From assembly GCA_964600655.1 (NCBI GenBank), contig CAZRMA010000001.1, positions 1 to 42,861 on the forward strand: a DNA stretch of 42,861 nucleotides, in the 5' to 3' direction. The notes beneath the pieces were generated by a model. It did no database searches. It was not told the DNA's origin and was given only the letters and a program-made list of their open reading frames with translations. Shown here one piece after another: positions 12,763 to 36,621 of the stretch; position 1 is the first letter of the stretch; every line of letters begins with the position of its first letter. Both the position numbers and the translations under genes were made by a program. The stretch comes from an uncultured Ignavibacteriaceae bacterium (lineage in GTDB: Bacteria; Bacteroidota; Ignavibacteria; Ignavibacteriales; Ignavibacteriaceae).

Positions 12763-14031
12763 TTAAACTTCCTGCATTGCTTCAACATCTTGTTCCCAAA
12801 TTCCTGTAAACAAAAACATGTAGGCAAGAATAAATAGCCAGCCTACAAGGTGATCCAGCCTAAATAAAACTGATTCCTGCAAATTAATAACTAATGAAGC
12901 GATTAAAATCCAAACCCAGGGATTAGGATAATTCAACCTACGCAAACTTGCAAAATACCTAACTATCATAATTAAGAATATACCCAACCCTACAAACCCA
13001 ATCTCGTTTGTAATATCCAGATAACCATTATGACTTTGATTTGGAATCCAAATAAACAAATCATATATATGCTTTAGATAAGCAGAAGGGGGATTAACGC
13101 TCCAAAATGCAAGATATCCCGTTCCCTGAATTGGATGTTGCATAATGCTAATTAACATTGCTGTCCATAAGTTTGTTCTACCTGATAATGTAGGGTCCTT
13201 TCCAACCGATTCCGTAATTATATCTATTATTTCAGGTGAAACAAATATTACCAGTGCAGCCGCCAATATTATAAATAAAAAAATTGTTACAGATGCAGAA
13301 CGGCCAAGTCCAAGAGGTTTAAATATTTTATCAATCGATAATAAGGTACCAGCAAATGCCAGTAAAAGAAAAGTTGAAATTGAAGTCATACTTCTTGCGC
13401 CAAATAATAGCGCCAAAGAAAAAAGCACCGCAACAGCTGCAATAAATTTAGGACGACCTGTCTCTGTCTTGTATATAAAAAAGCTCAATAATATACATAC
13501 TACCGAGACTTGACCAAGACCATTTTTCTCGATAGAAAATCCACGCCAAGTTTGAAATGCTGGGTCTATCGCGCCAGGCACTACTAAACAAACTACAACT
13601 GAAGAAAATACATATAAATAAAGAATAGGTTTTATAATCTTTAGAATATCATTGGTGGAATTTGTATGCACAATTAACGAAAGTATAACTGCAAAACCTG
13701 TAAAGATCCTAAAAAAACGCTTTGCTGTATCAAGTGGACTATATGACCAAAGCGTACTTATTAAACACCAAAGCAAAAATATAGTTAGTAATTTTTCCTT
13801 TTTTATTATTTCTATGGCATCTGTACGCCTGAAAGAAAGCGAAATCATTGAAAGTAAAAATATCAGTGTATAGATTATTTGATTAATAATGTTGCCTCCC
13901 TCGTTCGGGACTGTATCTTTACTAGGTGGCTGGAACGGAATGCTTGTATGAAAAAACATAACAAACAAAAATATTCCAAACGTAATAATAGCAATCTTGA
14001 AAAAAATATTTTTCTCAACTCTGTTTTCCAT
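12763..14031 (-). CDS. O-antigen ligase/polymerase-family (Wzy-like) integral membrane protein
   Basis: 422 aa and strongly hydrophobic, with many predicted TM segments. It has a periplasmic-loop motif resembling the Wzy_C/O-antigen-ligase signature (...IPNQSHNGYLDITNEIGFVGLGIF...). Confidence 0.7.
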   Translation of the reverse strand: MENRVEKNIFFKIAIITFGIFLFVMFFHTSIPFQPPSKDTVPNEGGNIINQIIYTLIFLLSMISLSFRRTDAIEIIKKEKLLTIFLLWCLISTLWSYSPLDTAKRFFRIFTGFAVILSLIVHTNSTNDILKIIKPILYLYVFSSVVVCLVVPGAIDPAFQTWRGFSIEKNGLGQVSVVCILLSFFIYKTETGRPKFIAAVAVLFSLALLFGARSMTSISTFLLLAFAGTLLSIDKIFKPLGLGRSASVTIFLFIILAAALVIFVSPEIIDIITESVGKDPTLSGRTNLWTAMLISIMQHPIQGTGYLAFWSVNPPSAYLKHIYDLFIWIPNQSHNGYLDITNEIGFVGLGIFLIMIVRYFASLRRLNYPNPWVWILIASLVINLQESVLFRLDHLVGWLFILAYMFLFTGIWEQDVEAMQEV

Positions 14032-14608
14032 TTGGGGTCAATTGTACTATTTAAATAATGCTAATAAATTAAACTATTATCGACAATAATTACAGCGTAT
14101 TCTTTGTACTTATAATATTATTGCCAATAACATACTATTTAAAAAATGTTATAATTTTCAAGTATCAATTATATAATAATAATATATATATCAACTAATT
14201 TAAAATATTAAATAAACCTGAATTAAAGTAAATCTAAACCATAATATTACTTACTAATAGAATTGATTCCTTATATTTTAACAAGTCACTTAAATTTTAA
14301 AATACTCACCTTTTACATTGTATGATTTGAGCTAAAATTAGTCTCGTAAATAATAAATTGATTTAGGAAAACAAAATATGTCTATTATCGCCAAATAATT
14401 TTTTAAAGAAAATTTTATCGATATTATAGAACTTTAAGCCTATAAGAGGCTATATTTTTAGATAATATTGATGGTATTTAAGTTTAATATTGCTATATTT
14501 CCTGTTTAAGATAATATAAGTCTCTTTTTATCATTTCTTTTATTGAATGCTGACTAAAAAAATAATTTAATTACTAATTAGCAGGAATATTCTTTTACTC
14601 TTAAATTC

Positions 14609-15571
14609 ATGAAAAATTTCGCCATTACCGGGGTAGCAGGTTACATTGCTCCCAGACATTTAAAAGCTATAAAAGAAACAGGGAACAACCTCGTTTCGGC
14701 TGTAGATCCACACGATTCTGTTGGTATTTTGGATCAATTTTTTCCGAACGCTAGTTTTTTCACGGAGTTTGAGAGATTTGATAGACATTTGGAAAAATTA
14801 CGAAGAAAGGGTGAGGAACAAAGAGTACATTACTTAACAATTTGTTCTCCAAATAATTTACATGACGCCCATATAAGATTAGCTTTAAGAGTCGGTGCAA
14901 ATGCAATTTGTGAAAAGCCATTGGTTTTGAATCCATGGAATTTGGATGCCCTTCAAGAACTAGAAGCTGAAACCGGAAGCAGAGTTTATACAATATTGCA
15001 ACTTAGAGTTCACGATAGCCTTATTGAATTAAAAAAGAAATTAGAATCATTAAAATCGTCAAGTAAGTATAAAGTAAATTTAACATACATTACATCACGA
15101 GGCTTATGGTATGATTTTTCGTGGAAAGGAATAAAAGAAAAATCAGGAGGAATTGGGACTAACATTGGTGTTCACTTTTTCGATTTACTAATCTGGCTGT
15201 TCGGTGATGTTAAAAAAAGTGAATTACAATTATCCGAAGCTAATAAGATGGCAGGATTTATCGAGCTTGAAAATGCAGAAGTATCCTGGTTCCTATCAGC
15301 AGATAGAAATGATCTTCCTGCTGATCTTATTGAAAAAAAAATCCCAACCTTTAGGTCTATAGAATTTAATGGCCAGGAAATTCAATTTAGTTCGGGATTC
15401 ACAGATCTACATACCAAGGTCTACCAGGAAACTTTAGTTGGAAATGGTTTTGGTATTGAAGATGCGCGACCTTCAATAAAATTAGTCTACGATTTAAGAA
15501 ATACAAAAATAATAGAAAATAGTGCTGCACCTATTCATTCTATGGCAAAAAAATACTGTATAAAAAAATAA
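14609..15571 (+). CDS. wbpB: UDP-N-acetyl-2-amino-2-deoxy-D-glucuronate 3-dehydrogenase-like oxidoreductase (Gfo/Idh/MocA; WbpB/WlbA-like)
   Basis: 320 aa. MKNFAITGVAGYIAPRHLKAIKETGNNLVSAVDPHDSVGILD, ICSPNNLH, ICEKPLV, LTYITSRGLWYDFSWKG, TNIGVHFFDLL and GFTDLHTKVYQE closely follow the Pseudomonas aeruginosa WbpB sequence as I recall it. Confidence 0.85.
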   Translation: MKNFAITGVAGYIAPRHLKAIKETGNNLVSAVDPHDSVGILDQFFPNASFFTEFERFDRHLEKLRRKGEEQRVHYLTICSPNNLHDAHIRLALRVGANAICEKPLVLNPWNLDALQELEAETGSRVYTILQLRVHDSLIELKKKLESLKSSSKYKVNLTYITSRGLWYDFSWKGIKEKSGGIGTNIGVHFFDLLIWLFGDVKKSELQLSEANKMAGFIELENAEVSWFLSADRNDLPADLIEKKIPTFRSIEFNGQEIQFSSGFTDLHTKVYQETLVGNGFGIEDARPSIKLVYDLRNTKIIENSAAPIHSMAKKYCIKK

Positions 15572-15578
15572 TAATACT

Positions 15579-16160
15579 ATGAAATATTTTGTTCATGAAT
15601 CAGCAATAGTTGATAGAGATGTTAATATAGGGGAAGGTGCAAAGATCTGGCACTTCAGTCATGTTCAGAGTGGTGCACAAATCGGAAGTAACTGTGTCCT
15701 AGGCCAAAATGTTAACATCGGGAATAATGTAGTTATAGGTAATAATTGTAAAATTCAGAATAACGTATCAGTGTATGAAGGTGTTACTCTTGAAGATTAT
15801 GTGTTCTGTGGCCCTTCAATGGTATTCACAAATATTCTTGATCCAAAATGCAAGTATCCGCAGGTTGGTTCTAAGTTCTATGTTAAAACTTTAGTTCAGG
15901 AAGGTGCTTCTTTTGGTGCAAACTGCACAATAGTATGCGGAAACAAAATCGGAAAAAATTCAATGATCGGTGCAGGGGCTGTAGTTACAAAAGACGTTCC
16001 CGATTTTGCTCTTGTTGTTGGAACCCCGGCTAAAATTATTGGTTGGGTAAGTGAAGCTGGAAAGAGATTGAATTTTGATAAAAACGGATTTGCATTTTGC
16101 GAAAAATCAAATAAGAAATACAAAATTGAAAATCAAATTGTTACAGAAGTTAGTTTATAA
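15579..16160 (+). CDS. wbpD: Left-handed beta-helix N-acetyltransferase (WbpD/WlbB-like, UDP-2-acetamido-3-amino-2,3-dideoxy-glucuronate N-acetyltransferase)
   Basis: 193 aa. VHESAIVD...GAKIWHFSHV...IGNNCKIQNNVSVYEGVTLEDYVFCGPSMVFTN...GANCTIVCG...IGAGAVVTKDVPDFALVVGTPAKIIGW matches WbpD-type hexapeptide transferases. It starts 7 nt after wbpB. Confidence 0.85.
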   Translation: MKYFVHESAIVDRDVNIGEGAKIWHFSHVQSGAQIGSNCVLGQNVNIGNNVVIGNNCKIQNNVSVYEGVTLEDYVFCGPSMVFTNILDPKCKYPQVGSKFYVKTLVQEGASFGANCTIVCGNKIGKNSMIGAGAVVTKDVPDFALVVGTPAKIIGWVSEAGKRLNFDKNGFAFCEKSNKKYKIENQIVTEVSL

Positions 16161-16287
16161 CAAATTATTATTCTTATAATTCTACAGTTGTCTACAAATT
16201 AAATGATCGATTGAAATTGATTGATCATTATTCATTACTATATTAAATTCATATTTAGTCAAATATTAAAGGTCTTAATTAGATTAG

Positions 16288-17250
16288 ATGGAAAAAATTA
16301 AATTAGTATATATTACAGGATATGGCAAAAGCGGTGGGACACTTATAGGGCGGCTTTTAGGCGATACAAAAAACGCATTTTTTGTAGGTGAAGTAAGATA
16401 CTTTTGGAGATACGGAATTTTAAAAAACTACGATTGCACTTGCGGTCAAAAATTTGATACTTGCGGCTTTTGGAAGAATGTTAAAGATGAATATATAAAT
16501 TCATTTCCATCAATAAAGATAGAAGAAATCAGTGAAGAATTAAGAGAGTTTGAAATGCTAAAAAATTATTTCAATCTAAAACGATTTCTAAAAGATAAAA
16601 ACAACACTGCATTTCGAGAAAAATTGTCTGATTATTTAGCACATAATGAAAAATTATATGAAACAATTGCAAAGTTAAGCGGAAAGAATATACTGGTTGA
16701 TTATTCAAACATCCCTGGTCGGTTGTTAGCTCTTTCCTTTTCAGATAAATTCGAAATCTATCCAATACACCTTGTTAGAGATCCCAGGGGAGTATTGAAC
16801 TCATATATACAAGCGGATTTACGCTATTATGGGAAAAATATACACAATAATTTTTGGCAGGTTTTTGTCTGGAATATTAATACAATTTTCTCCAGAATCA
16901 TCATAAAGAAATTGAATTCGGGGGACATTCCGACTATTTTATATAAAAATTTTGTGAAAGACCCAGTTCCAATCCTAGATAAATTAACGGGATTTTTTAA
17001 TGACAAATTTAACTATGATAAAAAGGACGGAAAGACTACAGTCTATTTAGATCAGGGGCATGTTTTTTCTGGTAACAGAAGCAGGTTCGAATCAAACAAT
17101 GTCACCCTGGTTGAAGATACCAAATGGAAAAAACAGCTGAGCTGGCCGAATAAATTATTAGCAAACATAATGTCACTTCCCCTTTATCGATATATTTTGA
17201 ATTGGTCTAGAAATAAACAATTCACTATTGGATCTTTTAAATCAGAATGA
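16288..17250 (+). CDS. PAPS-dependent sulfotransferase
   Basis: 320 aa. N-terminal 5'-phosphosulfate-binding-loop-like YITGYGKSGGTLIGRLLG and a 3'-phosphate-binding-like HLVRDPRGVLNS. It lies immediately upstream of the PAPS synthesis and PAP recycling genes. Confidence 0.75.
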   Translation: MEKIKLVYITGYGKSGGTLIGRLLGDTKNAFFVGEVRYFWRYGILKNYDCTCGQKFDTCGFWKNVKDEYINSFPSIKIEEISEELREFEMLKNYFNLKRFLKDKNNTAFREKLSDYLAHNEKLYETIAKLSGKNILVDYSNIPGRLLALSFSDKFEIYPIHLVRDPRGVLNSYIQADLRYYGKNIHNNFWQVFVWNINTIFSRIIIKKLNSGDIPTILYKNFVKDPVPILDKLTGFFNDKFNYDKKDGKTTVYLDQGHVFSGNRSRFESNNVTLVEDTKWKKQLSWPNKLLANIMSLPLYRYILNWSRNKQFTIGSFKSE

Positions 17251-17297
17251 TCTAAAAAAACTATTATTAATTTTTAATATGGCTGTTTACTTAAAAT

Positions 17298-18107
17298 ATG
17301 ATTGATATTGAAAAAATTATTAACATAACTCTCGATGCTGGCAAATCAGTACTTGAAATTTACAACTCTGATGATTTTGACATTCAAATCAAAACAGATA
17401 AATCCCCTCTTACTCAAGCAGACATAGCTTCTCATAATTTGATAAAAACAGGGTTAAATAGTTTATATCCGGATATTCCGATTTTGTCTGAAGAAGGGGC
17501 TAATATTCCATATCAAGAAAGAAAGAATTGGAAAAAGTTTTGGTTGGTTGATCCATTAGATGGTACTAAAGAGTTTATTAAAAAGAACGGAGAATTTACA
17601 ATTAACATTGCTCTGATTGAAAATAATAAACCTGTATTTGGAATTATATATGCACCGGCTTATGAAGAAAAATTCGTAAATGGAGAAATTGATATTAAAG
17701 AAGAATTTAACTTTAATAAATTGGATATAACAAGGGGCTCTCTCTATTTTGCGGATGAAACACTTGGATCCTATAAAATTATTAATCGGAATAAGCCTAT
17801 AAAGCTGTCGGTTAATAAAGGCAAAAGTGAAAAAAAAATTGCAGTGAAGAGTCGATCTCATTCATCAGAAGAAGAACAAAAAGTATTAGATGAACTTGGA
17901 GTTAATGAATATATTTCTGTTGGCAGCTCACTGAAATTTTGTATGCTTGCTGAAGGTCAGGCACAAGTTTACTATCGACACGGCCCAACAAATGAATGGG
18001 ATGTCGGGGCGGGTTATGCTATTGCTAAATTTGCTGGGGCCGACATAAAGGGATTAACTTTTAATAAACAAAATTTGCTAAATGACTCATTTATCGTAAA
18101 AAGTTAA
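17298..18107 (+). CDS. cysQ: 3'(2'),5'-bisphosphate nucleotidase (inositol-monophosphatase family)
   Basis: 269 aa. LSEEG, WLVDPLDGTKEF, WDVGAGYAI and a KSDKSPLTQADIASH-type N-terminus are typical of CysQ. Confidence 0.8.
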   Translation: MIDIEKIINITLDAGKSVLEIYNSDDFDIQIKTDKSPLTQADIASHNLIKTGLNSLYPDIPILSEEGANIPYQERKNWKKFWLVDPLDGTKEFIKKNGEFTINIALIENNKPVFGIIYAPAYEEKFVNGEIDIKEEFNFNKLDITRGSLYFADETLGSYKIINRNKPIKLSVNKGKSEKKIAVKSRSHSSEEEQKVLDELGVNEYISVGSSLKFCMLAEGQAQVYYRHGPTNEWDVGAGYAIAKFAGADIKGLTFNKQNLLNDSFIVKS

Positions 18108-18196
18108 TAAAGAGCTAATACTCTGAACTAATAATTTAAAAGAAATTTTTAGCACTTTAAATAAGAATTATTCAATAATATGAAATATGGTGATTA

Positions 18197-19190
18197 ATGA
18201 ACAATAGAATTTTTAAAATTATTGCGACAGTAGGTCCTAGTTCTCTTATAGAAAATATTATAAAGGAAATGGACAGGTGGGGTACAGATATCTTTAGAAT
18301 TAATTTATCACATACTTCAATTGATGATTTAAGAGGTGTTATTGAAAAACTTAGATTATGGACCAAAAAGCCGATTTGTCTGGATACTGAAGGAGCTCAG
18401 GTAAGAACCGGAAAATTTTCAACAGGTCAAATTACTCTTCAAACTAATAGTTTAGTTGAAATAGTAGAATATAGAGACAAAAAACAAGATAACAAGCTTG
18501 CAATTTATCCAATAAAACCTGAAGAAATCTTAAAAGTTGGAGATATTTTAAGAATAGATTTCAATTCTGTGATTGTGCAAATAACTAAAATTGAAGAAAA
18601 ATTAGTTTTGGGTCGTGTAATAGAAGGTGGAGTAGTTGGCAGCAATAAAGGCATAGGTATTGATAGAATGCCATATCTGTCTCCATTTACTGAGAAGGAT
18701 CTTGCTGCTCTAAAAATTGGCAAAGAAATGAATATTGATTTTTATGCTTTATCCTTTGCATATCAAAAAGAAGAAATTATTTGGATAAGGGAACAATTTA
18801 AATATCCACTTTTTGTTATAAGTAAAATCGAGAGTTACAATGCACTTTCAAATCTAAGAGATATAGTAAAGGCTACCGATGCGATTTTAATTGATAGAGG
18901 AGATTTGTCTAAAGAAGTACCGCTTCAAAAAATAGGTGTAACTCAACGATATATTATGAACTTTGCTAATCAATTTGAAAAGCCTGTTTACGTAGCAACA
19001 AATCTTTTAGACAGTATGATTTCCGGACTACAACCAAACAGAGCAGAAATTAATGATATAACAAGTAACCTCTTTAACGGAGCGAAAGGATTAGTATTAG
19101 CAGCCGAGACAGCAATTGGCAATCACCCTGTAGAAGTTGTTCGAATGGCGGCCGGGGTAATTGAGGAAACAACAAACTATATGAGCTATT
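18197..19190 (+). other. Domain: pyruvate kinase barrel (A) plus cap (B) domain; the PK C-terminal regulatory domain is absent
   Basis: See the motifs listed for the CDS. The counterparts of the PK catalytic Lys/Glu (SKIES), Asp (DRGDL), Thr (ETA) and Arg/Asn/Ser (RINLS) are all present. Boundaries are approximate. Confidence 0.7.
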
Positions 19191-20395
19191 ATACTAATAT
19201 GAATATTCATGATTATATAGATAAAGTTTATGAGAATAGCCTGATACCACCCCATGGAGGAGAGCTCATTCAAAATTATGTAGAAGAAGATATAAAAGAA
19301 ATTGAAAGCAAAAATTACCCTAAACATTATGTTAATGAACAGACAGCCTTAGATATTGAACAATTGGCTACCGGTACTTATTCACCAATCAGGGGATTTA
19401 TGAATTTGAAAGAAATGTATTCGGTATTGGAATCAAATAAATTACTTGACGGAAATATCTGGACTCTACCTATTTTATTACAAATGAATAAGGATGATAT
19501 AGATTTTAAATTAGGCGATAAAGTTTTATTATACTCGAAAATAGATAAGCAATTGCTGGGAGTATTAACTGTAAATAATATAGAAAAGATCCAAGATTTG
19601 AATGTTTGCGCGGAAAAATGGTTTGATACGAAAGATGACAGTCACCCGGGTGTTAGCTACTTTAAAAGCAGAGGAAATTACATAGTCAGCGGTGATGTAT
19701 TTAAACTTAGACGTGGCAGCACGGAAATTCCATATGTATTGACTCCAAAACAAATAAGATCGATTTTAAGAGATCTTAACCTTGCTACTGTAGTAGGATT
19801 CCATACCAGAAATATAATACATAGAGGTCATGAATTCATTCAAAAAGAAGCATTAAAAAGGATTAATGCTGATGCATTATTTATAAGCCCTGTAATTGGA
19901 CCAAAGAAAAAGGGCGATTTTGTTTCTGACGTAATTCTCAGAAGTTATGAAAGAATGATATCTAAAGGTTTTTATGATCCATTTAAAGTCCTGCTGGGGG
20001 CTTTTAGCACATATTCCAGATACAGTGGACCTAGGGAAGCAGTTTTTACAGCATTGTGTAGAAAAAATTTCGGATGCAGCCATTTTATTGTTGGAAGGGA
20101 CCATACGGGTGTTGGCAACTTCTACAATGCAAATGCATCACAGGAAATATTTGATAAATTAGGCGATTTAGGAATTAAACCTGTATTCTTTGACACAGCA
20201 TATTATTGTAGTGTCTGCGGATCAGTTACAGATAACTGTGATCATCCTGAAGATAAAAGGACTAAAATCAGCGCTACTGAAATCAGGAATTACCTCATAA
20301 GTAATAAACGACCTCCGGAATACTTGTTAAGAACTGAAATTTCAGATGTTCTGGAGAATATGATTAATGCAAAAGAACAATTATTCATAAGTTAA
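18197..20395 (+). CDS. Fusion protein: pyruvate-kinase-like A/B domains (N-terminal) + ATP sulfurylase (sulfate adenylyltransferase, C-terminal)
   Basis: Single 732 aa ORF. PK-like motifs: IIATVGPSS, FRINLSHTS, CLDTEGAQVRTG, FVISKIESY, ILIDRGDLSKEVP, VYVATNLLDSM, PNRAEINDITSNLFNGAKGLVLAAETAIGNHPVEVV. ATP sulfurylase motifs: LIPPHGGELIQNYV, GFHTRNIIHRGHEFI, HFIVGRDHTGVG. Confidence 0.85.
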   Translation: MNNRIFKIIATVGPSSLIENIIKEMDRWGTDIFRINLSHTSIDDLRGVIEKLRLWTKKPICLDTEGAQVRTGKFSTGQITLQTNSLVEIVEYRDKKQDNKLAIYPIKPEEILKVGDILRIDFNSVIVQITKIEEKLVLGRVIEGGVVGSNKGIGIDRMPYLSPFTEKDLAALKIGKEMNIDFYALSFAYQKEEIIWIREQFKYPLFVISKIESYNALSNLRDIVKATDAILIDRGDLSKEVPLQKIGVTQRYIMNFANQFEKPVYVATNLLDSMISGLQPNRAEINDITSNLFNGAKGLVLAAETAIGNHPVEVVRMAAGVIEETTNYMSYYTNMNIHDYIDKVYENSLIPPHGGELIQNYVEEDIKEIESKNYPKHYVNEQTALDIEQLATGTYSPIRGFMNLKEMYSVLESNKLLDGNIWTLPILLQMNKDDIDFKLGDKVLLYSKIDKQLLGVLTVNNIEKIQDLNVCAEKWFDTKDDSHPGVSYFKSRGNYIVSGDVFKLRRGSTEIPYVLTPKQIRSILRDLNLATVVGFHTRNIIHRGHEFIQKEALKRINADALFISPVIGPKKKGDFVSDVILRSYERMISKGFYDPFKVLLGAFSTYSRYSGPREAVFTALCRKNFGCSHFIVGRDHTGVGNFYNANASQEIFDKLGDLGIKPVFFDTAYYCSVCGSVTDNCDHPEDKRTKISATEIRNYLISNKRPPEYLLRTEISDVLENMINAKEQLFIS
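19220..20395 (+). other. sat: Domain: ATP sulfurylase (PUA-like plus catalytic domain)
   Basis: Starts near LIPPHGGEL. Contains the HxxH-type motif TRNIIHRGH and GRDHTG. Boundaries are approximate. Confidence 0.8.
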
Positions 20396-20413
20396 AAAGA
20401 AGGAATACTTCAA

Positions 20414-20923
20414 GTGATAATTTGGCTAACAGGACTTTCCGGATCCGGTAAAACAACGCTCAGCAATTTATTAAAAGAAAAGCTAACTAAAGATGGTTAT
20501 ACTGTTGAGTGGTATGATGGAGACAGAGTTAGGGAAGAATTGAATATTGTATCAGATTTTTCAAAAGAAGGTATTCTAAAAAATAATCGTGAAATTATAA
20601 ATAGAATAAATAAAGTTAAAGAAGAAACTGATTTCATTTTAATTTCCTTAATAACTCCATATCAGGAAGTCAGGAACTATGCGAGAAAAATTTTCGGCAA
20701 GGATTATTTTGAAGTTTATATTAAATGTGATAAAAATACTTTAATAGAAAGAGATACTAAAGGATTGTATAAAAAAGCGTTAAACGGCGAGATAGATAAT
20801 CTTATAGGATTTAGCCAAAAGATCCCCTATGAAGAGCCTGCTAATCCAGATCTCATATTGGAAACAAATTTGATTGCTCCTGAAGAAGCAATAAGAAAAA
20901 TATATGAAAAGTTAACTAAATAA
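20414..20923 (+). CDS. cysC: Adenylylsulfate (APS) kinase
   Basis: 169 aa. P-loop IIWLTGLSGSGKTTLSNLL, YDGDRVRE and ISLITPY are the classic CysC pattern. GTG start 18 nt after the fusion gene, with aaagaagg upstream. Confidence 0.9.
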   Translation: MIIWLTGLSGSGKTTLSNLLKEKLTKDGYTVEWYDGDRVREELNIVSDFSKEGILKNNREIINRINKVKEETDFILISLITPYQEVRNYARKIFGKDYFEVYIKCDKNTLIERDTKGLYKKALNGEIDNLIGFSQKIPYEEPANPDLILETNLIAPEEAIRKIYEKLTK

Positions 20924-21014: not shown

Positions 21015-21050
21015 AAAATAAAACCTTTCATAAGAATATATTATGAAAGG
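21015..21050 (-). terminator. Rho-independent terminator (10 bp stem) for the first phosphatase paralog; may also stop the convergent cysC operon
   Basis: cctttcataa (21024-21033) pairs with ttatgaaagg (21041-21050) around a 7 nt loop. On the minus strand it is followed by ttttattttatat. It lies 30 nt after the stop at 21081 and sits between convergent genes. Confidence 0.6.
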
Positions 21051-22550: not shown

Positions 22551-22755
22551 ATAGTTAATTCCTCAATAAAATTATTTGAATACATTCAATAGAATTTATT
22601 AGATTAGATGTGATATAACAATAATGACTACTTGTTAAGATAATCAGTAAACCTAGATCCTTTAATTACACACTCCATAATTTAACGGTTAAATAATTAC
22701 TTGAATAATTCCTATTAGATTTTAGTTCTTATTTATAGATTTTGCTAAATAAAAC

Positions 22756-22769
22756 GATAGCTTTCTATC
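22756..22769 (-). terminator. Weak hairpin downstream of phosphatase paralog 2
   Basis: Minus strand gatag-aaag-ctatc followed by gttttattt, about 35 nt after the stop at 22805. The stem is short. Confidence 0.3.
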
Positions 22770-22804
22770 CTATAAATTATAAATAATTACATATCACTTC
22801 TATT

Positions 22805-24586: not shown

Positions 24587-24608
24587 CATACAAAGTATTC
24601 CAAAGTTA

Positions 24609-27957: not shown

Positions 27958-27975
27958 TAAAAATCTAAAAACTCA

Positions 27976-29328
27976 CTAATTATTTTTATTATACAAACCG
28001 ACTAATTTCCTGTAAAGATCTAAAGTGTAAATTTTTTTATCAAAATAAGAATTATGGAAGAGAAATACGAAATTGCCTCCATATTTTTTGGTCGTTTTTA
28101 TTAAATTATCCATACGCGTTAGGAACTCATTCGGGCTAATGTTCTTTTGATATCTCATTAAGGCAAGTTCCATTAATGTTAGAGGCATTTCTTTTAATTT
28201 TAATTTTTTTCTTGTTAATATATTGTAAGCGGAATAAACAGAACAAGTCCCACATCTGAAACCTTCTTTCTCAGCATATCCTACAGTTGAGTCATATTCC
28301 ATATTATTATCATCCCATATTTGCCAGGTTGTTGGAACTTCAAACCTTAAGTAGTGCTGCCTACCACTATTGATTTTTACTCCTGTTGCTTTACAAAGCC
28401 CGTTGTATTCTTCCTGCCACAATTCCGGATTATCGTATGTGTAATAGCTGGGATGAAACCCAATAATATGTCCTCGTCTCTTTATATTATCAAATATTCC
28501 CTGAACTAGTTTGGAATTTACATCAAATCCCCAATCATATTCTGTTTTTTTTGCATTTTGAAAATAAAATTGTGACTTAACCCCTGCCTGTTCGGACAAG
28601 TCCATAAAATAATCATAAACATTTGCGGGATCATATTTATTATTAAATTTATTTATAAAATAAATAAATACATACAATACTGCACCAAGGAAATCTTTAA
28701 ACATTAGTAGATCCCGTCCTGCAGTTTTCGCCAGCATTTTAAGACTAACCAATCTAAGCGGCTGATCAATATCATGAGTAATAGAAAACTCAGGTTTGTT
28801 AAATTTCCTTTCTCCCTTATAGCCTAAAAATTTTAGCATATTCCAAAACATTTCTACATACTCATTTACAAGCGGACGATGCAGAATATTCATTTTACTT
28901 GTTAATGAATTGCTGGCTATAAATCTATTATTTACATCTCTTTCTTTGATAACATATTCCTCCCATCTTGATAAAAGGAAAAATGCCGAAGAAAATATAT
29001 CAAGACCGCAATCTATTTTTTTTTCATCTATCACAAGCTTGTCATCTCCCCAAAGAACAGGAATATCATCTTCAGATGTAAAAGAGTTATTATATTTTTT
29101 AATAGTATCAGGAATATTTTTTGCAGATAAATATGTCAAATCACCAGGGAAATGCTTAAAAAAATGGTCTTCAATTATAATTGTTTTGTCATCAAAAGTT
29201 ATCTCATAATTTGGTTGATCACCTTTTGCTTCCAATGTATATTCAATCCCCAATATCTCATTGAGCATTACAAACAAAGTATATGATTTTTCTTCAACAT
29301 ATTTTGGTGAAATGGATATTATCAACAT
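27976..29328 (-). CDS. Polysaccharide-deacetylase-like protein (divergent NodB/CE4-like C-terminal half, unknown N-terminal domain)
   Basis: 450 aa. SITHDIDQP and IIGFHPSYYTY loosely resemble CE4 motifs 1 and 2. Assignment is tentative. Starts 18 nt after... precisely, its stop lies 18 nt upstream of the next gene's start on the minus strand. Confidence 0.45.
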   Translation of the reverse strand: MLIISISPKYVEEKSYTLFVMLNEILGIEYTLEAKGDQPNYEITFDDKTIIIEDHFFKHFPGDLTYLSAKNIPDTIKKYNNSFTSEDDIPVLWGDDKLVIDEKKIDCGLDIFSSAFFLLSRWEEYVIKERDVNNRFIASNSLTSKMNILHRPLVNEYVEMFWNMLKFLGYKGERKFNKPEFSITHDIDQPLRLVSLKMLAKTAGRDLLMFKDFLGAVLYVFIYFINKFNNKYDPANVYDYFMDLSEQAGVKSQFYFQNAKKTEYDWGFDVNSKLVQGIFDNIKRRGHIIGFHPSYYTYDNPELWQEEYNGLCKATGVKINSGRQHYLRFEVPTTWQIWDDNNMEYDSTVGYAEKEGFRCGTCSVYSAYNILTRKKLKLKEMPLTLMELALMRYQKNISPNEFLTRMDNLIKTTKKYGGNFVFLFHNSYFDKKIYTLDLYRKLVGLYNKNN

Positions 29329-29346
29329 AAAATTAAATTATAATTA

Positions 29347-32777: not shown

Positions 32778-34229
32778 TCAAACGGTCCTTTTTCTCAATT
32801 TAAAATTCCTAAGAGTGAATAAAAATAATTTTTTGAATTCTTCAACTACATACCAATTAATTATTATAAATAATACAGCAATTGAGATTTTAATTAAAAT
32901 ATTATTTGTAGGAATAATTAAATAAACTCCAATTAAAGTGAGAGCAATTATTAATGGGGTTAGATACTTTTTAACATTTACATTAATATTTTCTTTTCTA
33001 AGGTACATATAGGAAAGGATTTGAGAAGTAATATTCATAATCATTAATGAACTGACAGCTCCTAATACACCATACGCTGGAATTAATAAAATTCCTCCAC
33101 CGATGCTTAATATACTTGAAATAGTTCCAACTTTTACAGGTGCTGATGAATTACCGGCAGAGATTAAAGAAGAACCCATGATATGGGAAATTGAACTAAA
33201 ATAGAAGACTAAAATCATCAGTGAAAATGGAAGCGCGGTTGCAAGATATCTCACTGAAAAGAATAATGTCACAATTTCTTCCTTAAAAAGAAATGAGATA
33301 AAAAACAGAGTACTAACAACCAGTGATAAACTGGTTATCGATTTGTTAATTAGCTGAACTGCCTGACCCTTTTCACCCTTAGAAAACAAAGTTGATAAGT
33401 TGGGAAAATACACAAATGTAAATGATAAAAATATCTTTCTGCAAGCTTCAGAAATCTTGCAAGCAACATCATAATATGCTATGCTAATCGGTGTTAGGAA
33501 AATTCCTATAATAAAAACGTTAATTCTATCGTATATTGAGTTTAAAATATTATTTAAGTAAAGTGGCAAACTAAATTTTATTATTCTTAAATAATTTTCC
33601 TTAGTAGATTTGTAAGCTGTTAACGACTTAAAAGGAATGACAATTATCTGATGAAGTAATGGCTGAACAGTGCATAATATTTCAATAAAAATAAGGTTAG
33701 TTAAATCAAGCTTATTTAAATAATAGTACAAGAAAGTAATTATTATTCTGAAAAATGATGAAAATGCATTTACATACGCATATTGCCTGAAATATTTCAG
33801 GCCTTGCAATAATTTATAAAACAAATCTCTATAATTGGAAAATATAATAAGAAGGATAATAGGGAAAAGATACTTGTTCAAATCATCGTTGAAGAAGTGA
33901 AGTACGAAATCTCCCAATAGATAGAATATAATACAAATAAAAAATAGCTGGACTGACCTTAATAATAGAACAGGTATAAGCGTGCTTCCCTTTTCCTCTT
34001 CGATTGCGCTTGAAATAGATTTAACCAGCGTTAGTTCCAACCCAAAACCACCCAGTATATTGAATAAGTTTACAACTGCAACTATCAGAATATACAGTCC
34101 ATATTCTCTGGCCGGCAAAAACCTGGTGAGAATAATGATCGTTAAAAATTGAAAAAACATACTTATAAAAGTACCGAGCGAGGTTGCGACTGATCCTTTT
34201 ACAAAGTCTTTTTTAAATTGATTATCCAT
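32778..34229 (-). CDS. wzx: Wzx-type polysaccharide flippase (MOP/PST family)
   Basis: 483 aa with about 12-14 hydrophobic segments. The N-terminal FKKDFVKGSVATSLGTFISMFFQFLTIIILTRFLPAREYGLY pattern is typical of PST-family flippases. Confidence 0.8.
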   Translation of the reverse strand: MDNQFKKDFVKGSVATSLGTFISMFFQFLTIIILTRFLPAREYGLYILIVAVVNLFNILGGFGLELTLVKSISSAIEEEKGSTLIPVLLLRSVQLFFICIIFYLLGDFVLHFFNDDLNKYLFPIILLIIFSNYRDLFYKLLQGLKYFRQYAYVNAFSSFFRIIITFLYYYLNKLDLTNLIFIEILCTVQPLLHQIIVIPFKSLTAYKSTKENYLRIIKFSLPLYLNNILNSIYDRINVFIIGIFLTPISIAYYDVACKISEACRKIFLSFTFVYFPNLSTLFSKGEKGQAVQLINKSITSLSLVVSTLFFISFLFKEEIVTLFFSVRYLATALPFSLMILVFYFSSISHIMGSSLISAGNSSAPVKVGTISSILSIGGGILLIPAYGVLGAVSSLMIMNITSQILSYMYLRKENINVNVKKYLTPLIIALTLIGVYLIIPTNNILIKISIAVLFIIINWYVVEEFKKLFLFTLRNFKLRKRTV

Positions 34230-34481: not shown

Positions 34482-35675
34482 TTATGTTGTTAAGATTAAA
34501 TTATCAATTAAATTAGTATATCTTGTACCCATAATCTCCCAGGAAATTTTTGAAATGCTAGAATAGGCTTCATTTATTCTTAATTTTCTTAATTCAGGAT
34601 ATAAACATAATTCAACTATTTTATCTGCGAATTCCTCCGGTTTTCCGGAATTAACATAGCTAATGCTATCTCTACTGAATGACAATGCAACTGTATTTAA
34701 ATATGTGCTGACAATGGGAATTCCAACTGCTGCATATTCACAAGCTTTTGTTGGCAGTGCCAAATGCATATATAAACTATTGACATAAGGAACTACTCCA
34801 ATATCAGAATCGCATAAAATTTCAGGAATTGCATGGCCATCAAAGTCACCATTTAGTTTAACATTTTCTTCTAATTTTAATTCACTGATTTTATCAGTAA
34901 GATAGCTTTTATAGCCGCTGTCATAATCTCCAAATACATTAAATACGCTGCCGGGTATTTTTTCTTTTACAAATTTCATTGCTTCAACTATTAAATGAAC
35001 ACCAAACCTATAAGCAACCGTACCAGGATAAACAATTTTAGCTCCTTCATTAATTACCGAGAAGTTATTTTTTGATTGAAATTTAAAAACATTCTGATTG
35101 GGAGTATTTAAAATTAAAGTAATTTTATCCGGTGAAACACCTCTTAAAACCAATTTTTCTTTGCAGCCTTCCGTAACAGTAATAATATGATCGGCAAAGG
35201 AACAGGAAATCTTTTCAACTATTGCAACAATTTTTTTTATTAACATATGCCGTGAACCCGGCCATTTTTCTTCAAACAATTCTAAAGTAAGATCATGAAT
35301 ATCCAATATAATAGGTATTTTCAAAAATTTTTGAACAATCGTTACAAATATTAAATGATCCGGCATATTATGAATCTGAATAAGCGAATATTTCTTTTTG
35401 AAATGAAGTTGCTGCAATTTGAAGAACGATTTAATCATAAATAAAGTGGAATAAAATAAATAGCTAAAAAGTTTCTCTTTAGTCAGGTATTTTTGAACCC
35501 TATATGCAGTAACATTACCTAATTTTTCAACCTTGCTTAAATTATCTAGTTGCACAGATATAATATCAATTTCATACCCTTTTTTTTCTAACTCTTCCGC
35601 TTCTCTTCTTACTCTCACATCCGCCGGGTAGGCAGACATAGTCACCATACAAATTTTTTTTTTCTTAATTGCCAT
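34482..35675 (-). CDS. Family 4 (GT-B) glycosyltransferase
   Basis: 397 aa. KICMVTMSAYPADVRVRREAEEL is a GT4 N-terminal pattern, and GVVPYVNSLYMHLALPTKACEYAAVGIPIVST is the C-terminal nucleotide-sugar-binding region. The start may instead be the downstream Met (MVTMS). Confidence 0.7.
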   Translation of the reverse strand: MAIKKKKICMVTMSAYPADVRVRREAEELEKKGYEIDIISVQLDNLSKVEKLGNVTAYRVQKYLTKEKLFSYLFYSTLFMIKSFFKLQQLHFKKKYSLIQIHNMPDHLIFVTIVQKFLKIPIILDIHDLTLELFEEKWPGSRHMLIKKIVAIVEKISCSFADHIITVTEGCKEKLVLRGVSPDKITLILNTPNQNVFKFQSKNNFSVINEGAKIVYPGTVAYRFGVHLIVEAMKFVKEKIPGSVFNVFGDYDSGYKSYLTDKISELKLEENVKLNGDFDGHAIPEILCDSDIGVVPYVNSLYMHLALPTKACEYAAVGIPIVSTYLNTVALSFSRDSISYVNSGKPEEFADKIVELCLYPELRKLRINEAYSSISKISWEIMGTRYTNLIDNLILTT

Positions 35676-35694
35676 AGTTATGTTAATAGACTTA

Positions 35695-36621
35695 TTAAAT
35701 GATTAATTTATTTTTGGGACAATGGTTTTCTAAATACACTGCCAATTCATCAGGAAGTGGATTCCAGAAAATACCATTATATTTGTCTTTAAAATACTCC
35801 AGCAATTCAACATAGTATTTTTTAGAGAACTCTTCATTTTTGTTTTTTCCATTACCCAAATTGATATAATCCGGATGTACATTCAATAACACCATTCCCT
35901 CTTTTTCAACTATCCAATCGACTTTCTTTTTCCATATATCAATATTTTCTTTCATAAGTATCAATAGTGTAAAATCCTGAACTAGTGTATAAGGTAATTC
36001 CCAATATCCTTGATCGCTTCCATCTTTAGAAACAAAAAAAGGGAAAATGGTTTCCACGCCATCAGATTGAGGCTCGAAAGGATCTGTATCGAAAGTTGAA
36101 AGATCATATTTAATATTAAGGTCCTGAATCCACTCGAGGTTATGGTGCATTGCGGGAGCTCTAAAACCAGTTACATTCCATTGTTTTATATACTCGTTAA
36201 TTTTTTTTGCTCTTTCATCAAATATTTTTTTAGTTGAAAAAAGCTTCCCATCATGATTTAATCCATGCATTCCCACCTCAAAGCCGCGCTTTACCAGCTC
36301 ATCCCTAACTTCAGGAGAAACATTATATCTCTCAGGCACAAAGTTAAATGAAGAGCGAAAACCCAATTTATTTTCGAGTTCACTTAGCTGAATGCATTTA
36401 TCATGTCCACCCTGGTGCTCAACATCATGTGTTAAAACTACTGCAAACTTCTTATTATCCGCCCAGCCCGGCCATCCATCAGGTTTTTTACCGGATTTCT
36501 CAAGTATTGGCCATATATCTTTATATTTTTTTCTTTGGATGGCAACAAGCCTTCTTCGTAAAAAAACTTGAAACGCTCTTGGCAATATTGGTTTTAAAAT
36601 GTAAAATATTTTTTTAGTCAT
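35695..36621 (-). CDS. Polysaccharide deacetylase-like protein (CE4/NodB-like)
   Basis: 308 aa. VVLTHDVEHQGG and GFEVGMHGLNHDG resemble the metal-binding Asp/His motifs of CE4-type deacetylases. Confidence 0.6.
   Translation of the reverse strand: MTKKIFYILKPILPRAFQVFLRRRLVAIQRKKYKDIWPILEKSGKKPDGWPGWADNKKFAVVLTHDVEHQGGHDKCIQLSELENKLGFRSSFNFVPERYNVSPEVRDELVKRGFEVGMHGLNHDGKLFSTKKIFDERAKKINEYIKQWNVTGFRAPAMHHNLEWIQDLNIKYDLSTFDTDPFEPQSDGVETIFPFFVSKDGSDQGYWELPYTLVQDFTLLILMKENIDIWKKKVDWIVEKEGMVLLNVHPDYINLGNGKNKNEEFSKKYYVELLEYFKDKYNGIFWNPLPDELAVYLENHCPKNKLII

What the first reader, a model, noticed from the sequence alone, without database searches (positions are those of the whole stretch)
14609..20923. 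Self-contained sulfation operon inside a Wzx/Wzy polysaccharide locus predicts a sulfated diacetamido-uronic-acid glycan
Seen in sequence: six same-strand genes with short gaps (7, 127, 47, 89 and 18 nt). They encode a WbpB-like dehydrogenase, WbpD-like N-acetyltransferase, sulfotransferase, CysQ, PK-ATP sulfurylase and CysC. The group is bounded by a 577 bp AT-rich promoter region and a convergent terminator.

Established knowledge: Sat plus CysC make PAPS, sulfotransferases consume it, and CysQ removes the inhibitory product PAP. WbpB and WbpD act in UDP-2,3-diacetamido-2,3-dideoxy-uronic acid synthesis.

Inference: the locus makes its own PAPS pool to O-sulfate a sugar of the exported polymer. 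Sulfated bacterial polysaccharides are comparatively rare. A dedicated PAPS/PAP cycle wired into a capsule/EPS locus is a strong, testable prediction.
Basis: partly seen in the sequence, partly recalled or inferred. Interest (0 to 1): 0.6.

Follow-up and report, generated by a model that had tools for sequence, protein, structure and literature searches.

The report
Sulfation cassette in Ignavibacteria glycan locus
An uncultured salt-marsh Ignavibacteria bacterium carries, inside a large cell-surface sugar locus, its own kit for making the sulfate donor PAPS, using it and clearing its by-product, so it most likely makes a sulfated surface product; this kind of locus is already published, though the enzymes here are unusual.

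Summary
WbpB, WbpD, CysQ, APS kinase and the pyruvate-kinase::ATP-sulfurylase fusion are firmly identified. The 320-aa protein misses Pfam's sulfotransferase cut-off, but fold, PAPS-binding motifs and closer relatives show it is a sulfotransferase.

The genome (92.7% complete) has no CysH/CysD-type gene. A 100%-complete relative carrying the same module has none either. The only other ATP sulfurylase sits with aprBA (dissimilatory). So the PAPS is made for sulfation, not for cysteine synthesis.

The fusion, CysC and a sulfotransferase travel together in many glycan clusters of other lineages. Among 400 sampled class genomes, the one other genome with the fusion is also the only one with this sulfotransferase family.

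Three corrections apply:
- wbpBD and the sulfation genes are separable modules.
- The acceptor is not shown. A second paralogous sulfotransferase lies beside an NRPS-PKS about 25 kb away.
- A VimE-like deacetylase suggests the diacetamido sugar is remodelled further.

PAPS genes plus sulfotransferases in capsule loci are already published (Vibrio KMM 8419), and this scan has noted the PK-Sat fusion before on other DNA. Verdict: new variant of a known kind, moderate interest.

The parts
14032..14608 (.). 577-bp, 20% G+C intergenic region between divergent wzy (-) and wbpB (+); presumed promoter region, not verified
   Evidence: Sigma-70-like matches are not clearly above shuffles.
14609..15571 (+). 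WbpB-type UDP-sugar 3-dehydrogenase (GFO/IDH/MocA family)
   Evidence: PDB 3oa2 WbpB E 1e-101 and 3o9z E 3e-100. Pfam GFO_IDH_MocA.
15579..16160 (+). WbpD/WlbB-type 3-amino-sugar N-acetyltransferase (left-handed beta-helix)
   Evidence: PDB 3mqg E 2e-60. Hexapep repeats.
16288..17250 (+). Cytoplasmic PAPS-type sulfotransferase of an uncharacterised, mostly 'hypothetical protein' family. It has a 5'-PSB loop (S15 G16 T18), a 3'-PB motif (R164 D165 R167 S172), a near-invariant E35, and an invariant C50/C52/C59/H258 set.
   Evidence: Pfam Sulfotransfer_3 gives 23.2 bits, below the cut-off of 27. Homologs at 41-60% identity carry PF13469/PF00685. Invariant residues come from alignment A1. AF2 model pLDDT 87. 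Foldseek and VIA top hits are all sulfotransferases, Z 16.6.
17298..18107 (+). CysQ, 3'(2'),5'-bisphosphate nucleotidase (removes PAP)
   Evidence: TIGR01331 267.3 bits against a cut-off of 228.8. Pfam Inositol_P.
18197..20395 (+). Fusion of a pyruvate-kinase A/B barrel (no C-terminal regulatory domain) to a PUA-like domain and an ATP sulfurylase
   Evidence: Pfam PK 191 bits, PUA_2 119 bits, ATP-sulfurylase 234 bits. PK residues R34 N36 S38 D63 R70 K210 E212 D236 T268 E304 and Sat motifs HTRN 536-539, H542/H545 and GRDH 633-636 are invariant in 22 fusions. Alignment to PykF.
20414..20923 (+). CysC, APS kinase (GTG start)
   Evidence: TIGR00455 155.2 bits against a cut-off of 138.7. It is the only full APS kinase in the genome.
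21024..21050 (.). Palindromic hairpin between the convergent cysC and metallophosphoesterase genes. It has a T-run on the minus strand only.
27976..29328 (-). VimE-family (DUF7033) deacetylase homolog; candidate de-N-acetylase of the WbpB/WbpD product. It is the only such gene in the genome.
   Evidence: NF053580 VimE 150.8 bits, E 4e-44, full length but below the equivalog cut-off of 440. Pfam DUF7033.
12763..14031 (-). Wzy-type polymerase of the surrounding Wzx/Wzy locus
   Evidence: Pfam Wzy_C
32778..34229 (-). Wzx-type flippase of the surrounding locus
   Evidence: Pfam Polysacc_synt
34482..36621 (-). GT4 glycosyltransferase plus CE4 polysaccharide deacetylase. This pair lies next to the sulfotransferase in related loci L036 and L039.

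Best explanation
The block is two adjacent modules inside a surface-glycan super-locus of about 55 kb.

Module 1 is wbpB-wbpD. It supplies two steps of a 2,3-diamino-uronic-acid nucleotide-sugar pathway.

Module 2 is sulfotransferase-cysQ-PK::sat-cysC, a dedicated sulfation unit. Its steps are as follows:
- The Sat domain makes APS from ATP and sulfate.
- CysC phosphorylates APS to PAPS.
- The cytoplasmic sulfotransferase passes the sulfate to an acceptor made by this locus. The most likely acceptor is a nucleotide sugar or an undecaprenyl-linked repeat unit, sulfated before Wzx flips it.
- CysQ hydrolyses the inhibitory PAP.
- The fused pyruvate-kinase barrel most likely uses PEP to turn CysC's ADP back into ATP on the spot. 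This would relieve ADP/APS dead-end inhibition and pull an unfavourable reaction.

Shown here: the gene identities, intact catalytic residues, the lack of an assimilatory route for PAPS, and the linkage of the module to sulfotransferases and glycan genes.

Inferred: the acceptor, the position of the sulfate, the role of PEP, and co-transcription.
For: Gene identities.

Sulfotransferase:
- Fold Z 15-16.6 to TPST and CurM ST, with all top hits being sulfotransferases.
- PAPS-binding motifs are invariant in 26 family members.
- There is no signal peptide or TM segment; the protein starts with strand 4-10 and then the P-loop.

No assimilatory use for PAPS:
- The PAPS_reduct family is not found in G000, while all 14 control genomes ring.
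- It is not found in G299 either (100% complete). G041 has only a marginal 22-bit hit.
- The second Sat is sat-aprB-aprA, and a dsrAB-like pair lies on C137.
- The cassette holds the only real APS kinase in the genome.

Linkage of the module:
- PK-Sat is followed by CysC in 16 of 22 loci that have downstream sequence.
- In seven distant loci it is followed by an unrelated Sulfotransfer_1 gene and then GT4, GT2, methyltransferase or epimerase genes.
- In Ignavibacteriaceae loci it sits with this sulfotransferase family inside the same Wza-Wzc-...-CE4 deacetylase-GT4 locus.
- Among 400 sampled class genomes, the only other genome with PK-Sat (G299) is the only other one with this sulfotransferase family, and the two genes lie 661 bp apart there.

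PK and Sat domains: catalytic residues are invariant across 22 fusions that share a mean column identity of 42%.

ATP regeneration: in vitro, PK-driven ATP regeneration is needed for PAPS synthesis because APS kinase forms a dead-end E-ADP-APS complex (PMC9885120).

Published precedent: PAPS genes plus sulfotransferases in a capsule cluster accompany a chemically proven sulfated CPS (PMC11641403).

Expression: a weak hint only. Two error-free contigs from a salt-marsh metatranscriptome lie in wbpD and cysQ.
Against: - No chemistry exists and the acceptor is unknown.
- The nearest solved structures are tyrosylprotein and acyl-ACP (CurM) sulfotransferases, not carbohydrate ones.
- A 43% paralog of the sulfotransferase sits next to an NRPS-PKS/thioesterase set in the same super-locus. 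The family may therefore act on a lipid or peptide.
- wbpB/wbpD are not linked to the sulfotransferase in other loci.
- The sulfotransferase scores below Pfam's cut-off.
- The genome is a 773-contig MAG at 92.7% completeness and 6.2% contamination, so absences are not proof.
- The PEP-recycling role of the PK barrel is untested. Some PK motifs differ from the canonical form (DTEG for DTKG, LAAE for LSGE).
- The RNA evidence cannot show an operon.
Confidence: 0.7

Rival explanations
1. The PAPS is made mainly for a non-glycan acceptor: the lipopeptide or polyketide product of the adjacent NRPS-PKS (a CurM/OLS-like use of sulfate, or a sulfated lipid). The position next to wbpBD would then be incidental.
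For: - Top sequence and Foldseek matches are the CurM and olefin-synthase sulfotransferase domains.
- Contig C66 abuts the window's left end. In the relative G041 a single 2685-aa A-PCP-KS-AT-PCP-aminotransferase-C protein equals the window's 793 aa plus C66's 1892 aa.
- That gene is followed by A-PCP-TE, a 309-aa protein and the 43%-identical paralog ST2.
- A PPTase lies at 2449-3204.
Against: - The cassette sulfotransferase is about 25 kb from the NRPS-PKS, while ST2 is the copy next to it.
- In L036-L049 the family sits in glycan loci with no NRPS-PKS in 15-20 kb.
- In distant lineages PK-Sat-CysC sits with Sulfotransfer_1 and glycosyltransferases.
Confidence: 0.13
2. The locus makes a Wbp/Vim-type linking glycan for type IX secretion cargo, as A-LPS does in Porphyromonas, and the sulfate provides its anionic character. 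A variant is that the sulfotransferase sulfates the cargo proteins themselves.
For: - WbpB and WbpD occur with a VimE-family deacetylase. FemAB/VimA-like genes occur in related loci (TIGR03019 128 bits).
- A CE4 deacetylase plus GT4 pair is present.
- The genome has a PorU sortase (966 bits).
- T9SS-tailed phosphoesterase genes flank the sulfotransferase/PK-Sat in nearly every related locus.
- The Wbp/Vim pathway makes the cargo-linking sugar in P. gingivalis (PMC7468200).
- The best structural matches are tyrosylprotein sulfotransferases.
Against: - The VimE-like gene is found in only 1 of 40 relatives of the same genus, family or order. It is therefore not a core part of T9SS anchoring in this lineage.
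- Its score is far below the VimE equivalog cut-off (150 against 440).
- No FemAB gene lies in the window; one lies on C425.
- T9SS cargo genes are very numerous in this genome (45 CTD-type hits), so adjacency is weak evidence.
Confidence: 0.1
3. Housekeeping sulfate assimilation for cysteine synthesis, with the genes merely lying in the glycan locus.
For: Sat, CysC and CysQ are also the first enzymes of PAPS-dependent assimilation in E. coli-type organisms (established knowledge).
Against: - No PAPS_reduct family gene is found in G000 or G299.
- The NIR_SIR genes found are a dsrAB-like pair.
- The module is missing from 40 of 40 close relatives and 399 of 400 sampled class genomes.
- A sulfotransferase is embedded in the module.
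Confidence: 0.03

Closest known systems
Sulfated capsule cluster of Vibrio sp. KMM 8419 (PMC11641403), and the related Cobetia marina KMM 1449 cluster (PMC11766843, listed, not read)
   Same: Second-copy PAPS synthesis genes and sulfotransferases lie inside a polysaccharide gene cluster. The authors call this combination a hallmark of sulfated polysaccharide synthesis.
   Different: - Vibrio uses CysD/CysN (GTPase-driven) plus CysC and ABC-transporter export.
- This locus uses a homomeric Sat fused to a pyruvate-kinase barrel, adds CysQ, and uses a Wzx/Wzy route.
- This sulfotransferase family is different and uncharacterised, and the host is an Ignavibacteria MAG.
- The Vibrio polymer is chemically proven to be sulfated. 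This one is not.
Bifunctional PAPS synthases (ATP sulfurylase fused to APS kinase; e.g. human PAPSS1/2) - from established knowledge and PMC9885120
   Same: A fusion protein dedicated to making PAPS for sulfotransferases. A few members of the present family even add an APS-kinase domain (P0145, P0164, P0210).
   Different: The fusion partner here is a pyruvate-kinase A/B barrel at the N terminus, and CysC is a separate gene 18 nt downstream. No paper on a natural PK-Sat fusion was found.
Canonical pyruvate kinase (e.g. E. coli PykF, PDB 1pky/4yng)
   Same: The barrel and lid domains align over residues 6-332 (E 1e-43). The PEP, metal and phosphoryl-transfer residues are kept.
   Different: There is no C-terminal allosteric domain. 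Identity to the genome's housekeeping-type PKs is about 30%. Several motifs are altered (DTEG, LAAE).
Wbp pathway of Pseudomonas aeruginosa and the Wbp/Vim pathway of Porphyromonas gingivalis (PMC7468200)
   Same: WbpB and WbpD are close homologs of the solved enzymes. A VimE-family deacetylase homolog lies in the same locus.
   Different: - WbpA and WbpI are not in the locus.
- A WbpE-like gene is seen only in the relative's flank, and it is closer to QdtB.
- There is no VimA in the window; an ATP-grasp ligase sits next to the VimE homolog instead.
- The VimE homolog scores far below the equivalog cut-off.
Rhizobial NodPQ-NodH, Xanthomonas RaxPQ-RaxST and the Bacteroides BT0412-0416 sulfation clusters (recalled from own knowledge, not checked here)
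   Same: A dedicated extra PAPS supply is encoded next to a sulfotransferase for a secreted or surface product.
   Different: Those clusters use CysDN-type sulfurylases. Their acceptors are known: Nod factor, RaxX peptide and cholesterol. They have no PK fusion.

Membership tests
PAPS-dependent sulfotransferase superfamily | 5'-phosphosulfate-binding P-loop near the N terminus | tested here: met
   G11-x-G-K-S15-G16-G-T18 follows strand 4-10. S15, G16 and T18 are invariant in 26 family members.
PAPS-dependent sulfotransferase superfamily | 3'-phosphate-binding motif (RDP...S after a central strand) | tested here: met
   R164 D165 P166 R167 ... S172 are invariant. They align to the same segment of CurM ST.
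PAPS-dependent sulfotransferase superfamily | Sulfotransferase fold | tested here: met
   AF2 model pLDDT 87, pTM 0.87. The Foldseek top 12 are all sulfotransferases, with CurM ST at E 1.4e-6. VIA gives Z 16.6 (rmsd 3.7, 240 aligned) to TPST1 and Z 15.0 to CurM ST.
Pfam Sulfotransfer_3 (PF13469) | Score at or above the gathering threshold of 27 bits | tested here: not met
   This protein scores 23.2 bits. Relatives at 41-60% identity do carry PF13469/PF00685 in precomputed hits. I file it in the superfamily, not in this Pfam family.
PAPS-dependent sulfotransferase superfamily | Sulfate transfer from PAPS to an acceptor | not testable with these tools
   Needs an enzyme assay.
CysQ 3'(2'),5'-bisphosphate nucleotidase | Equivalog model score above cut-off | tested here: met
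   TIGR01331 267.3 bits against 228.8.
APS kinase (CysC) | Equivalog-domain model score above cut-off | tested here: met
   TIGR00455 155.2 bits against 138.7; PF01583 138.7 bits against 21.1.
Homomeric ATP sulfurylase (Sat) | PUA-like domain plus catalytic domain with the (Q/H)xRN, HxxH and GRD motifs | tested here: met
   PF14306 and PF01747 are above cut-off. HTRN 536-539, H542/H545 and GRDH 633-636 are invariant. NCBIfam equivalog scores are just below cut-off (TIGR00339 294.6 against 322.95).
Pyruvate kinase | Catalytic barrel with PEP, metal and lysine residues | tested here: met
   PF00224 191 bits. R34 N36 S38 D63 K210 E212 D236 T268 are invariant in 22 fusions.
Pyruvate kinase | C-terminal alpha/beta regulatory domain and full-length equivalog score | tested here: not met
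   There is no PK_C hit, and Sat domains follow from residue 350. TIGR01064 scores 252 against a cut-off of 306. It is not a canonical pyruvate kinase.
Wbp pathway (UDP-2,3-diacetamido-2,3-dideoxy-uronic acid synthesis) | WbpB dehydrogenase and WbpD N-acetyltransferase | tested here: met
   PDB 3oa2 E 1e-101 and 3mqg E 2e-60. The substrate itself was not tested.
Wbp pathway (UDP-2,3-diacetamido-2,3-dideoxy-uronic acid synthesis) | WbpA 6-dehydrogenase, WbpE aminotransferase and (for the manno form) WbpI epimerase present with them | tested here: inconclusive
   - None lies in the window.
- A QdtB/WbpE-clade DegT lies beyond the right end in relative G041.
- A UDP-sugar dehydrogenase lies next to a 76% WbpB paralog on C127, and an Epimerase_2 lies next to a WbpD paralog on C663.
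- At least seven DegT genes lie elsewhere in the genome.
Sulfated-polysaccharide gene cluster (as defined in PMC11641403) | PAPS synthesis genes and sulfotransferase gene(s) inside a polysaccharide assembly/export cluster | tested here: met
   Sat, CysC, CysQ and the sulfotransferase lie between Wzy (12763-14031) and Wzx/GT4/Wzc/Wza.
Sulfated-polysaccharide gene cluster (as defined in PMC11641403) | Polymer shown to carry sulfate | not testable with these tools
   The organism is uncultured and no chemistry is available.
VimE (UDP-GlcNAc3NAcA deacetylase) | Equivalog score of at least 440 bits | tested here: not met
   NF053580 150.8 bits, E 4e-44, over 65-427 of 431 positions. It is a homolog of the family, not an equivalog.
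Assimilatory sulfate reduction | APS/PAPS reductase (CysH) to use the activated sulfate | tested here: not met
   PF01507 has no match in G000 (92.7% complete) or in G299 (100% complete). All 14 control genomes ring.

The most novel reading that the evidence does not exclude
The sulfate is placed on an amine rather than a hydroxyl. The locus's deacetylases (the VimE homolog at 27976-29328 and/or the CE4 enzyme at 35695-36621) would strip an N-acetyl group from the WbpB/WbpD-derived diamino-uronic acid. The sulfotransferase would then N-sulfate it. This is the N-deacetylase/N-sulfotransferase logic of heparan sulfate, and it would yield an N-sulfated bacterial surface glycan, fed by a PEP-driven PAPS synthase. 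The evidence does not exclude it:
- The sulfotransferase lies directly after wbpD here.
- It lies directly after the deacetylase-GT4 pair in L036 and L039.
- NDST sulfotransferase domains are among the structural matches (Z 12.5).
Probability: 0.1. Interest if true: 0.75.

Novelty: new variant of a known kind. Interest (0 to 1): 0.5.

Why it matters
Sulfated polysaccharides are valued biomaterials and are still considered uncommon in bacteria, and none is described for Ignavibacteria in the papers I could search.

This locus adds a compact, transferable four-gene sulfation unit to the known design. Its sulfate-activating enzyme carries a built-in pyruvate-kinase barrel. If that barrel recycles ADP with PEP, it is nature's version of the ATP-regeneration trick used in enzymatic PAPS synthesis, and it could be useful for engineering sulfation in microbes.

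The uncharacterised sulfotransferase family has a conserved Cys3-His set. It also co-occurs strictly with the PAPS module. Both features make it a clear target for finding new acceptor specificities.

The locus also shows that Wbp/Vim-type sugar remodelling genes occur outside the oral Bacteroidota.

Tried and rejected
Neighbourhoods came from the search for related loci and the genome search instead.
- The search for related loci with the wide alignment A1 found no usable conserved stretch. The narrower alignment A2 worked.
- Sequence-only evidence for the sulfotransferase was weak: no NCBIfam hit and a best PDB phmmer E of 0.29.
- Promoter search gave nothing usable. Sigma-70-like hits were 54 against 39 +/- 6 in shuffles. 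No Bacteroidota-type TAnnTTTG motif lies in any gap.
- Co-transcription could not be tested. The one RNA run held only two short contigs, in wbpD and cysQ. All runs were contigs, so depth, ends and strand are unreadable.
- The second APS-kinase hit on C434 is a 25-residue fragment in a HepT-like frame and was dismissed.
- Is C207 (sat-aprBA) contamination? Its G+C is 36.6% against a genome median of 33%, and its tetranucleotide rank is 480 of 537. However, relatives G004, G012 and G022 carry the same stand-alone sat. The question is left open; either way it is not an assimilatory set.
- Is the VimE-like gene a core T9SS-anchoring gene? It was found in only 1 of 40 relatives, so that idea was marked down.
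- Searches for a paper on PK-Sat fusions and on Ignavibacteria sulfotransferases found nothing relevant.
- Complex prediction, the PADLOC and PHROGs libraries, and the phage, plasmid and E. coli collections were not used, as they have no bearing here.

Full report
**Observation.** The six plus-strand ORFs lie exactly at the coordinates given. The gaps are 7, 127, 47, 89 and 18 nt, and a 577-bp stretch at 20% G+C lies upstream.
- Five products are firmly identified:
  - WbpB: PDB 3oa2, E 1e-101.
  - WbpD/WlbB: PDB 3mqg, E 2e-60.
  - CysQ: TIGR01331, above cut-off.
  - APS kinase: TIGR00455, above cut-off.
  - A 732-aa protein with a pyruvate-kinase barrel (6-315), a PUA-like domain (350-503) and an ATP-sulfurylase domain (513-720).
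- The hairpin at 21024-21050 is scored as a terminator only for the convergent minus-strand gene.
- No promoter could be verified.
- A close relative's 333-kb contig carries the same six genes in the same order at 91-98% amino-acid identity (L033).

**Is the 320-aa protein a sulfotransferase?** By sequence alone the case is weak. Sulfotransfer_3 scores 23.2 bits against a cut-off of 27. There is no NCBIfam hit, and CurM ST in the PDB scores E 0.29. Other evidence settles it:
- The protein has 91 relatives, nearly all unnamed. Several relatives at 41-60% identity carry PF13469/PF00685.
- In an alignment of 26 of them, the 5'-phosphosulfate loop (S15 G16 T18) and the 3'-phosphate motif (R164 D165 R167 S172) are invariant. 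So are C50, C52, C59 and H258. E35 is nearly invariant.
- An AlphaFold model (pLDDT 87, pTM 0.87) finds only PAPS sulfotransferases at the top of Foldseek.
- The same model gives Z 16.6 to TPST1 and Z 15.0 to CurM ST.
- The protein has no signal peptide or membrane segment, so it acts in the cytoplasm.

**Housekeeping or dedicated?** The window lies in a 4.57-Mb MAG of 773 contigs (92.7% complete, 6.2% contaminated). Names of homologs place it in the Ignavibacteria. Salt-marsh metagenomes hold the stretch.
- The PAPS_reduct family (CysH, CysD) was not found, although all 14 control genomes ring.
- A second ATP sulfurylase exists, but it is followed by aprB and aprA. A dsrAB-like pair lies on C137. 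That set is dissimilatory.
- The cassette holds the only real APS kinase in the genome.
- G299, a 100%-complete relative that carries the same module, also lacks any PAPS_reduct gene.
- PAPS therefore has no reductive outlet here and must be made for sulfotransferases.

**Comparative evidence.**
- The PK-Sat architecture is found in more than 120 protein clusters at 45-93% identity. Source names place them in Ignavibacteria, Parcubacteria-type candidate phyla, Bacteriovoracia and Promethearchaeota. A few add an APS-kinase domain.
- None of 40 genus, family or order relatives has it, and only one of 400 sampled class genomes does. It is an accessory trait.
- In 25 metagenome loci, PK-Sat is followed by CysC in 16 of the 22 with downstream sequence.
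- In seven distant loci, a Sulfotransfer_1 gene follows (PF00685, 93.9 bits in L052). GT4, GT2, methyltransferase or epimerase genes come next.
- In Ignavibacteriaceae loci the order is:
  - Hexapep, Wza, Wzc, FemAB-like, ATP-grasp, two unknowns and a T9SS-tailed phosphoesterase.
  - Then [CysQ], PK-Sat, [CysC], [TauE permease] and this sulfotransferase family.
  - Then a T9SS-tailed phosphoesterase, FemAB-like, CE4 deacetylase and GT4.
- wbpB and wbpD are not next to the sulfotransferase in any of these loci.
- In the class sample, the only other genome with the sulfotransferase family is the only other one with PK-Sat. The two genes lie 661 bp apart there.
- The sulfation module is thus a unit that associates with glycan loci, and wbpBD is a separate module that happens to precede it here.

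**The fusion.** All pyruvate-kinase residues for PEP, metal and phosphoryl transfer are invariant in 22 diverse fusions (R34 N36 S38 D63 R70 K210 E212 D236 T268 E304). So are the Sat motifs (HTRN 536-539, H542/H545, GRDH 633-636) and a C671/C674/C681/H683 set.
- The C-terminal regulatory PK domain is missing.
- APS kinase makes ADP and is blocked by a dead-end E-ADP-APS complex. Adding pyruvate kinase and PEP is needed for good PAPS yields in vitro (PMC9885120).
- The most economical reading is that the fused barrel regenerates ATP from ADP with PEP beside Sat and CysC. This is inference.
- I found no paper on such a fusion.
- This scan has noted the same fusion with the same reading on at least seven other genomes. 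Those are unchecked AI notes, not independent support.

**The wider locus.**
- *NRPS-PKS flank:*
  - Contig C66 abuts the window's left end.
  - In relative G041 one 2685-aa A-PCP-KS-AT-PCP-aminotransferase-C protein equals the window's 793 aa plus C66's 1892 aa.
  - It is followed by A-PCP-TE, a 309-aa protein, a second sulfotransferase (43% identical to the cassette's) and a T9SS-tailed phosphoesterase.
- *Third sulfotransferase:* it lies on C228, next to an IS110 transposase and another wbpB copy.
- *Right flank:* beyond the window's right end the relative has DegT, a Bac_transf initiating transferase, a GFO oxidoreductase and a hexapeptide acetyltransferase. The DegT belongs to the QdtB/WbpE clade (QdtB E 3e-98, WbpE E 1e-71).
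- *VimE-like gene:*
  - The DUF7033 protein at 27976-29328 is a full-length homolog of VimE, the deacetylase of UDP-2,3-diacetamido-glucuronate (150.8 bits, below the 440 cut-off).
  - It is the only such gene in the genome, and it sits beside an ATP-grasp ligase.
- *Link to type IX secretion:*
  - In P. gingivalis the Wbp/Vim pathway makes the sugar that links type IX cargo to LPS (PMC7468200; PMC13086638).
  - This genome has a PorU sortase.
  - However, the VimE-like gene occurs in only 1 of 40 relatives, so it is not a core anchoring gene. I keep the T9SS link as a minor rival.

**Verdict.**
- The link to a diacetamido-uronic acid, the single-operon claim and the glycan acceptor remain unproven.
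- The design (PAPS genes plus sulfotransferase in a polysaccharide cluster) is published (PMC11641403), and the scan has met it many times.
- New relative to the literature I could search are the PK-fused sulfurylase, this sulfotransferase family, the Ignavibacteria host and the Wbp/Vim-like context.
- I rate it a new variant of a known kind, interest 0.5.

Noticed in passing
G000 contigs C207 (L001:432-3103) and C137 (L025/L026): A stand-alone sat is followed by aprB and aprA, and a pair of adjacent NIR_SIR (dsrAB-like) genes lies on C137. Together they form a dissimilatory sulfur set in an Ignavibacteria MAG. C207's composition is somewhat atypical (36.6% G+C), but relatives G004, G012 and G022 have the same type of sat.
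   Followed up: partly
window 1-3204 plus contig C66 (L032); relative L068:3917-19489: C66 joins the window's left end. The edge gene is one 2685-aa A-PCP-KS-AT-PCP-aminotransferase-C protein (iturin/mycosubtilin-like loading logic). It is followed by A-PCP-TE, an unknown 309-aa protein, a second sulfotransferase (43% identical to the cassette's) and a T9SS-tailed Exo_endo_phos protein. This could be a sulfated lipo-amino-acid pathway.
   Followed up: partly
window 26302-31225: The DUF7033 gene of the four-gene cassette (DmfA2-like, DUF7033, PHP, ATP-grasp) is a full-length homolog of VimE. VimE is the deacetylase of UDP-2,3-diacetamido-glucuronate. The gene is the only one of its kind in the genome. 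The adjacent ATP-grasp ligase could replace VimA in re-acylating the freed amine.
   Followed up: partly
window 36660-38246 and 21081-26132; L035, L037, L038, L040, L043-L049, C66: T9SS-tailed, purple-acid-phosphatase-like metallophosphoesterase genes flank the sulfotransferase/PK-Sat genes in almost every related locus. The 528-aa protein matches such phosphoesterases only by language-model features (0.88, a lead only). The reason for the association is unknown.
   Followed up: partly
L041:3460-4203, L042:4218-4961, L055:1884-2636: In some relatives a TauE/SafE-type (TSUP) permease sits between cysC and the sulfotransferase and may be the sulfate importer of the module. It is absent from the window's cassette.
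   Followed up: no
L037:18075-19965, L046, L038:3912-5780: Related loci that lack an adjacent cysC carry a roughly 228-aa P-loop kinase-like gene and a 376-aa gene with a faint FomB-kinase match. L037 also has a PEP mutase and a 2-hydroxyacid dehydrogenase, so phosphonate decoration may accompany sulfation in these glycan loci.
   Followed up: no
G000 contigs C228, C376, C127, C663, C425: The MAG holds further copies of wbpB (76-87%), wbpD (72%), the CE4 deacetylase (65%, next to a FemAB/VimA-like gene) and a third sulfotransferase beside an IS110 transposase. These are either several glycan loci or strain variants collapsed into one bin (6.2% contamination).
   Followed up: partly
window versus G041:C26 (L033, L068, L069): Conservation between the two close genomes is mosaic:
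- cassette genes 91-98%;
- glycosyltransferases, Wzx, VimE-like and ATP-grasp 91-97%;
- Wzy 75%, Wzc 72%, Wza 69%, PHP 76%;
- BNR/T9SS protein 58% and phosphoesterases 73-81%.
   Followed up: no
window 16435-16464 and 17059-17061 (protein residues C50, C52, C59, H258): The sulfotransferase family has an invariant CxC-x6-C motif plus a distant His. This looks like a metal site not described for sulfotransferases that I know of. The spatial clustering in the model was not checked.
   Followed up: no
window 15803-15969 and 17807-18044: Two error-free contigs from a salt-marsh metatranscriptome run (X14) lie within wbpD and cysQ. This is a weak hint that the genes are expressed in situ, and DNA carry-over cannot be excluded.
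   Followed up: partly
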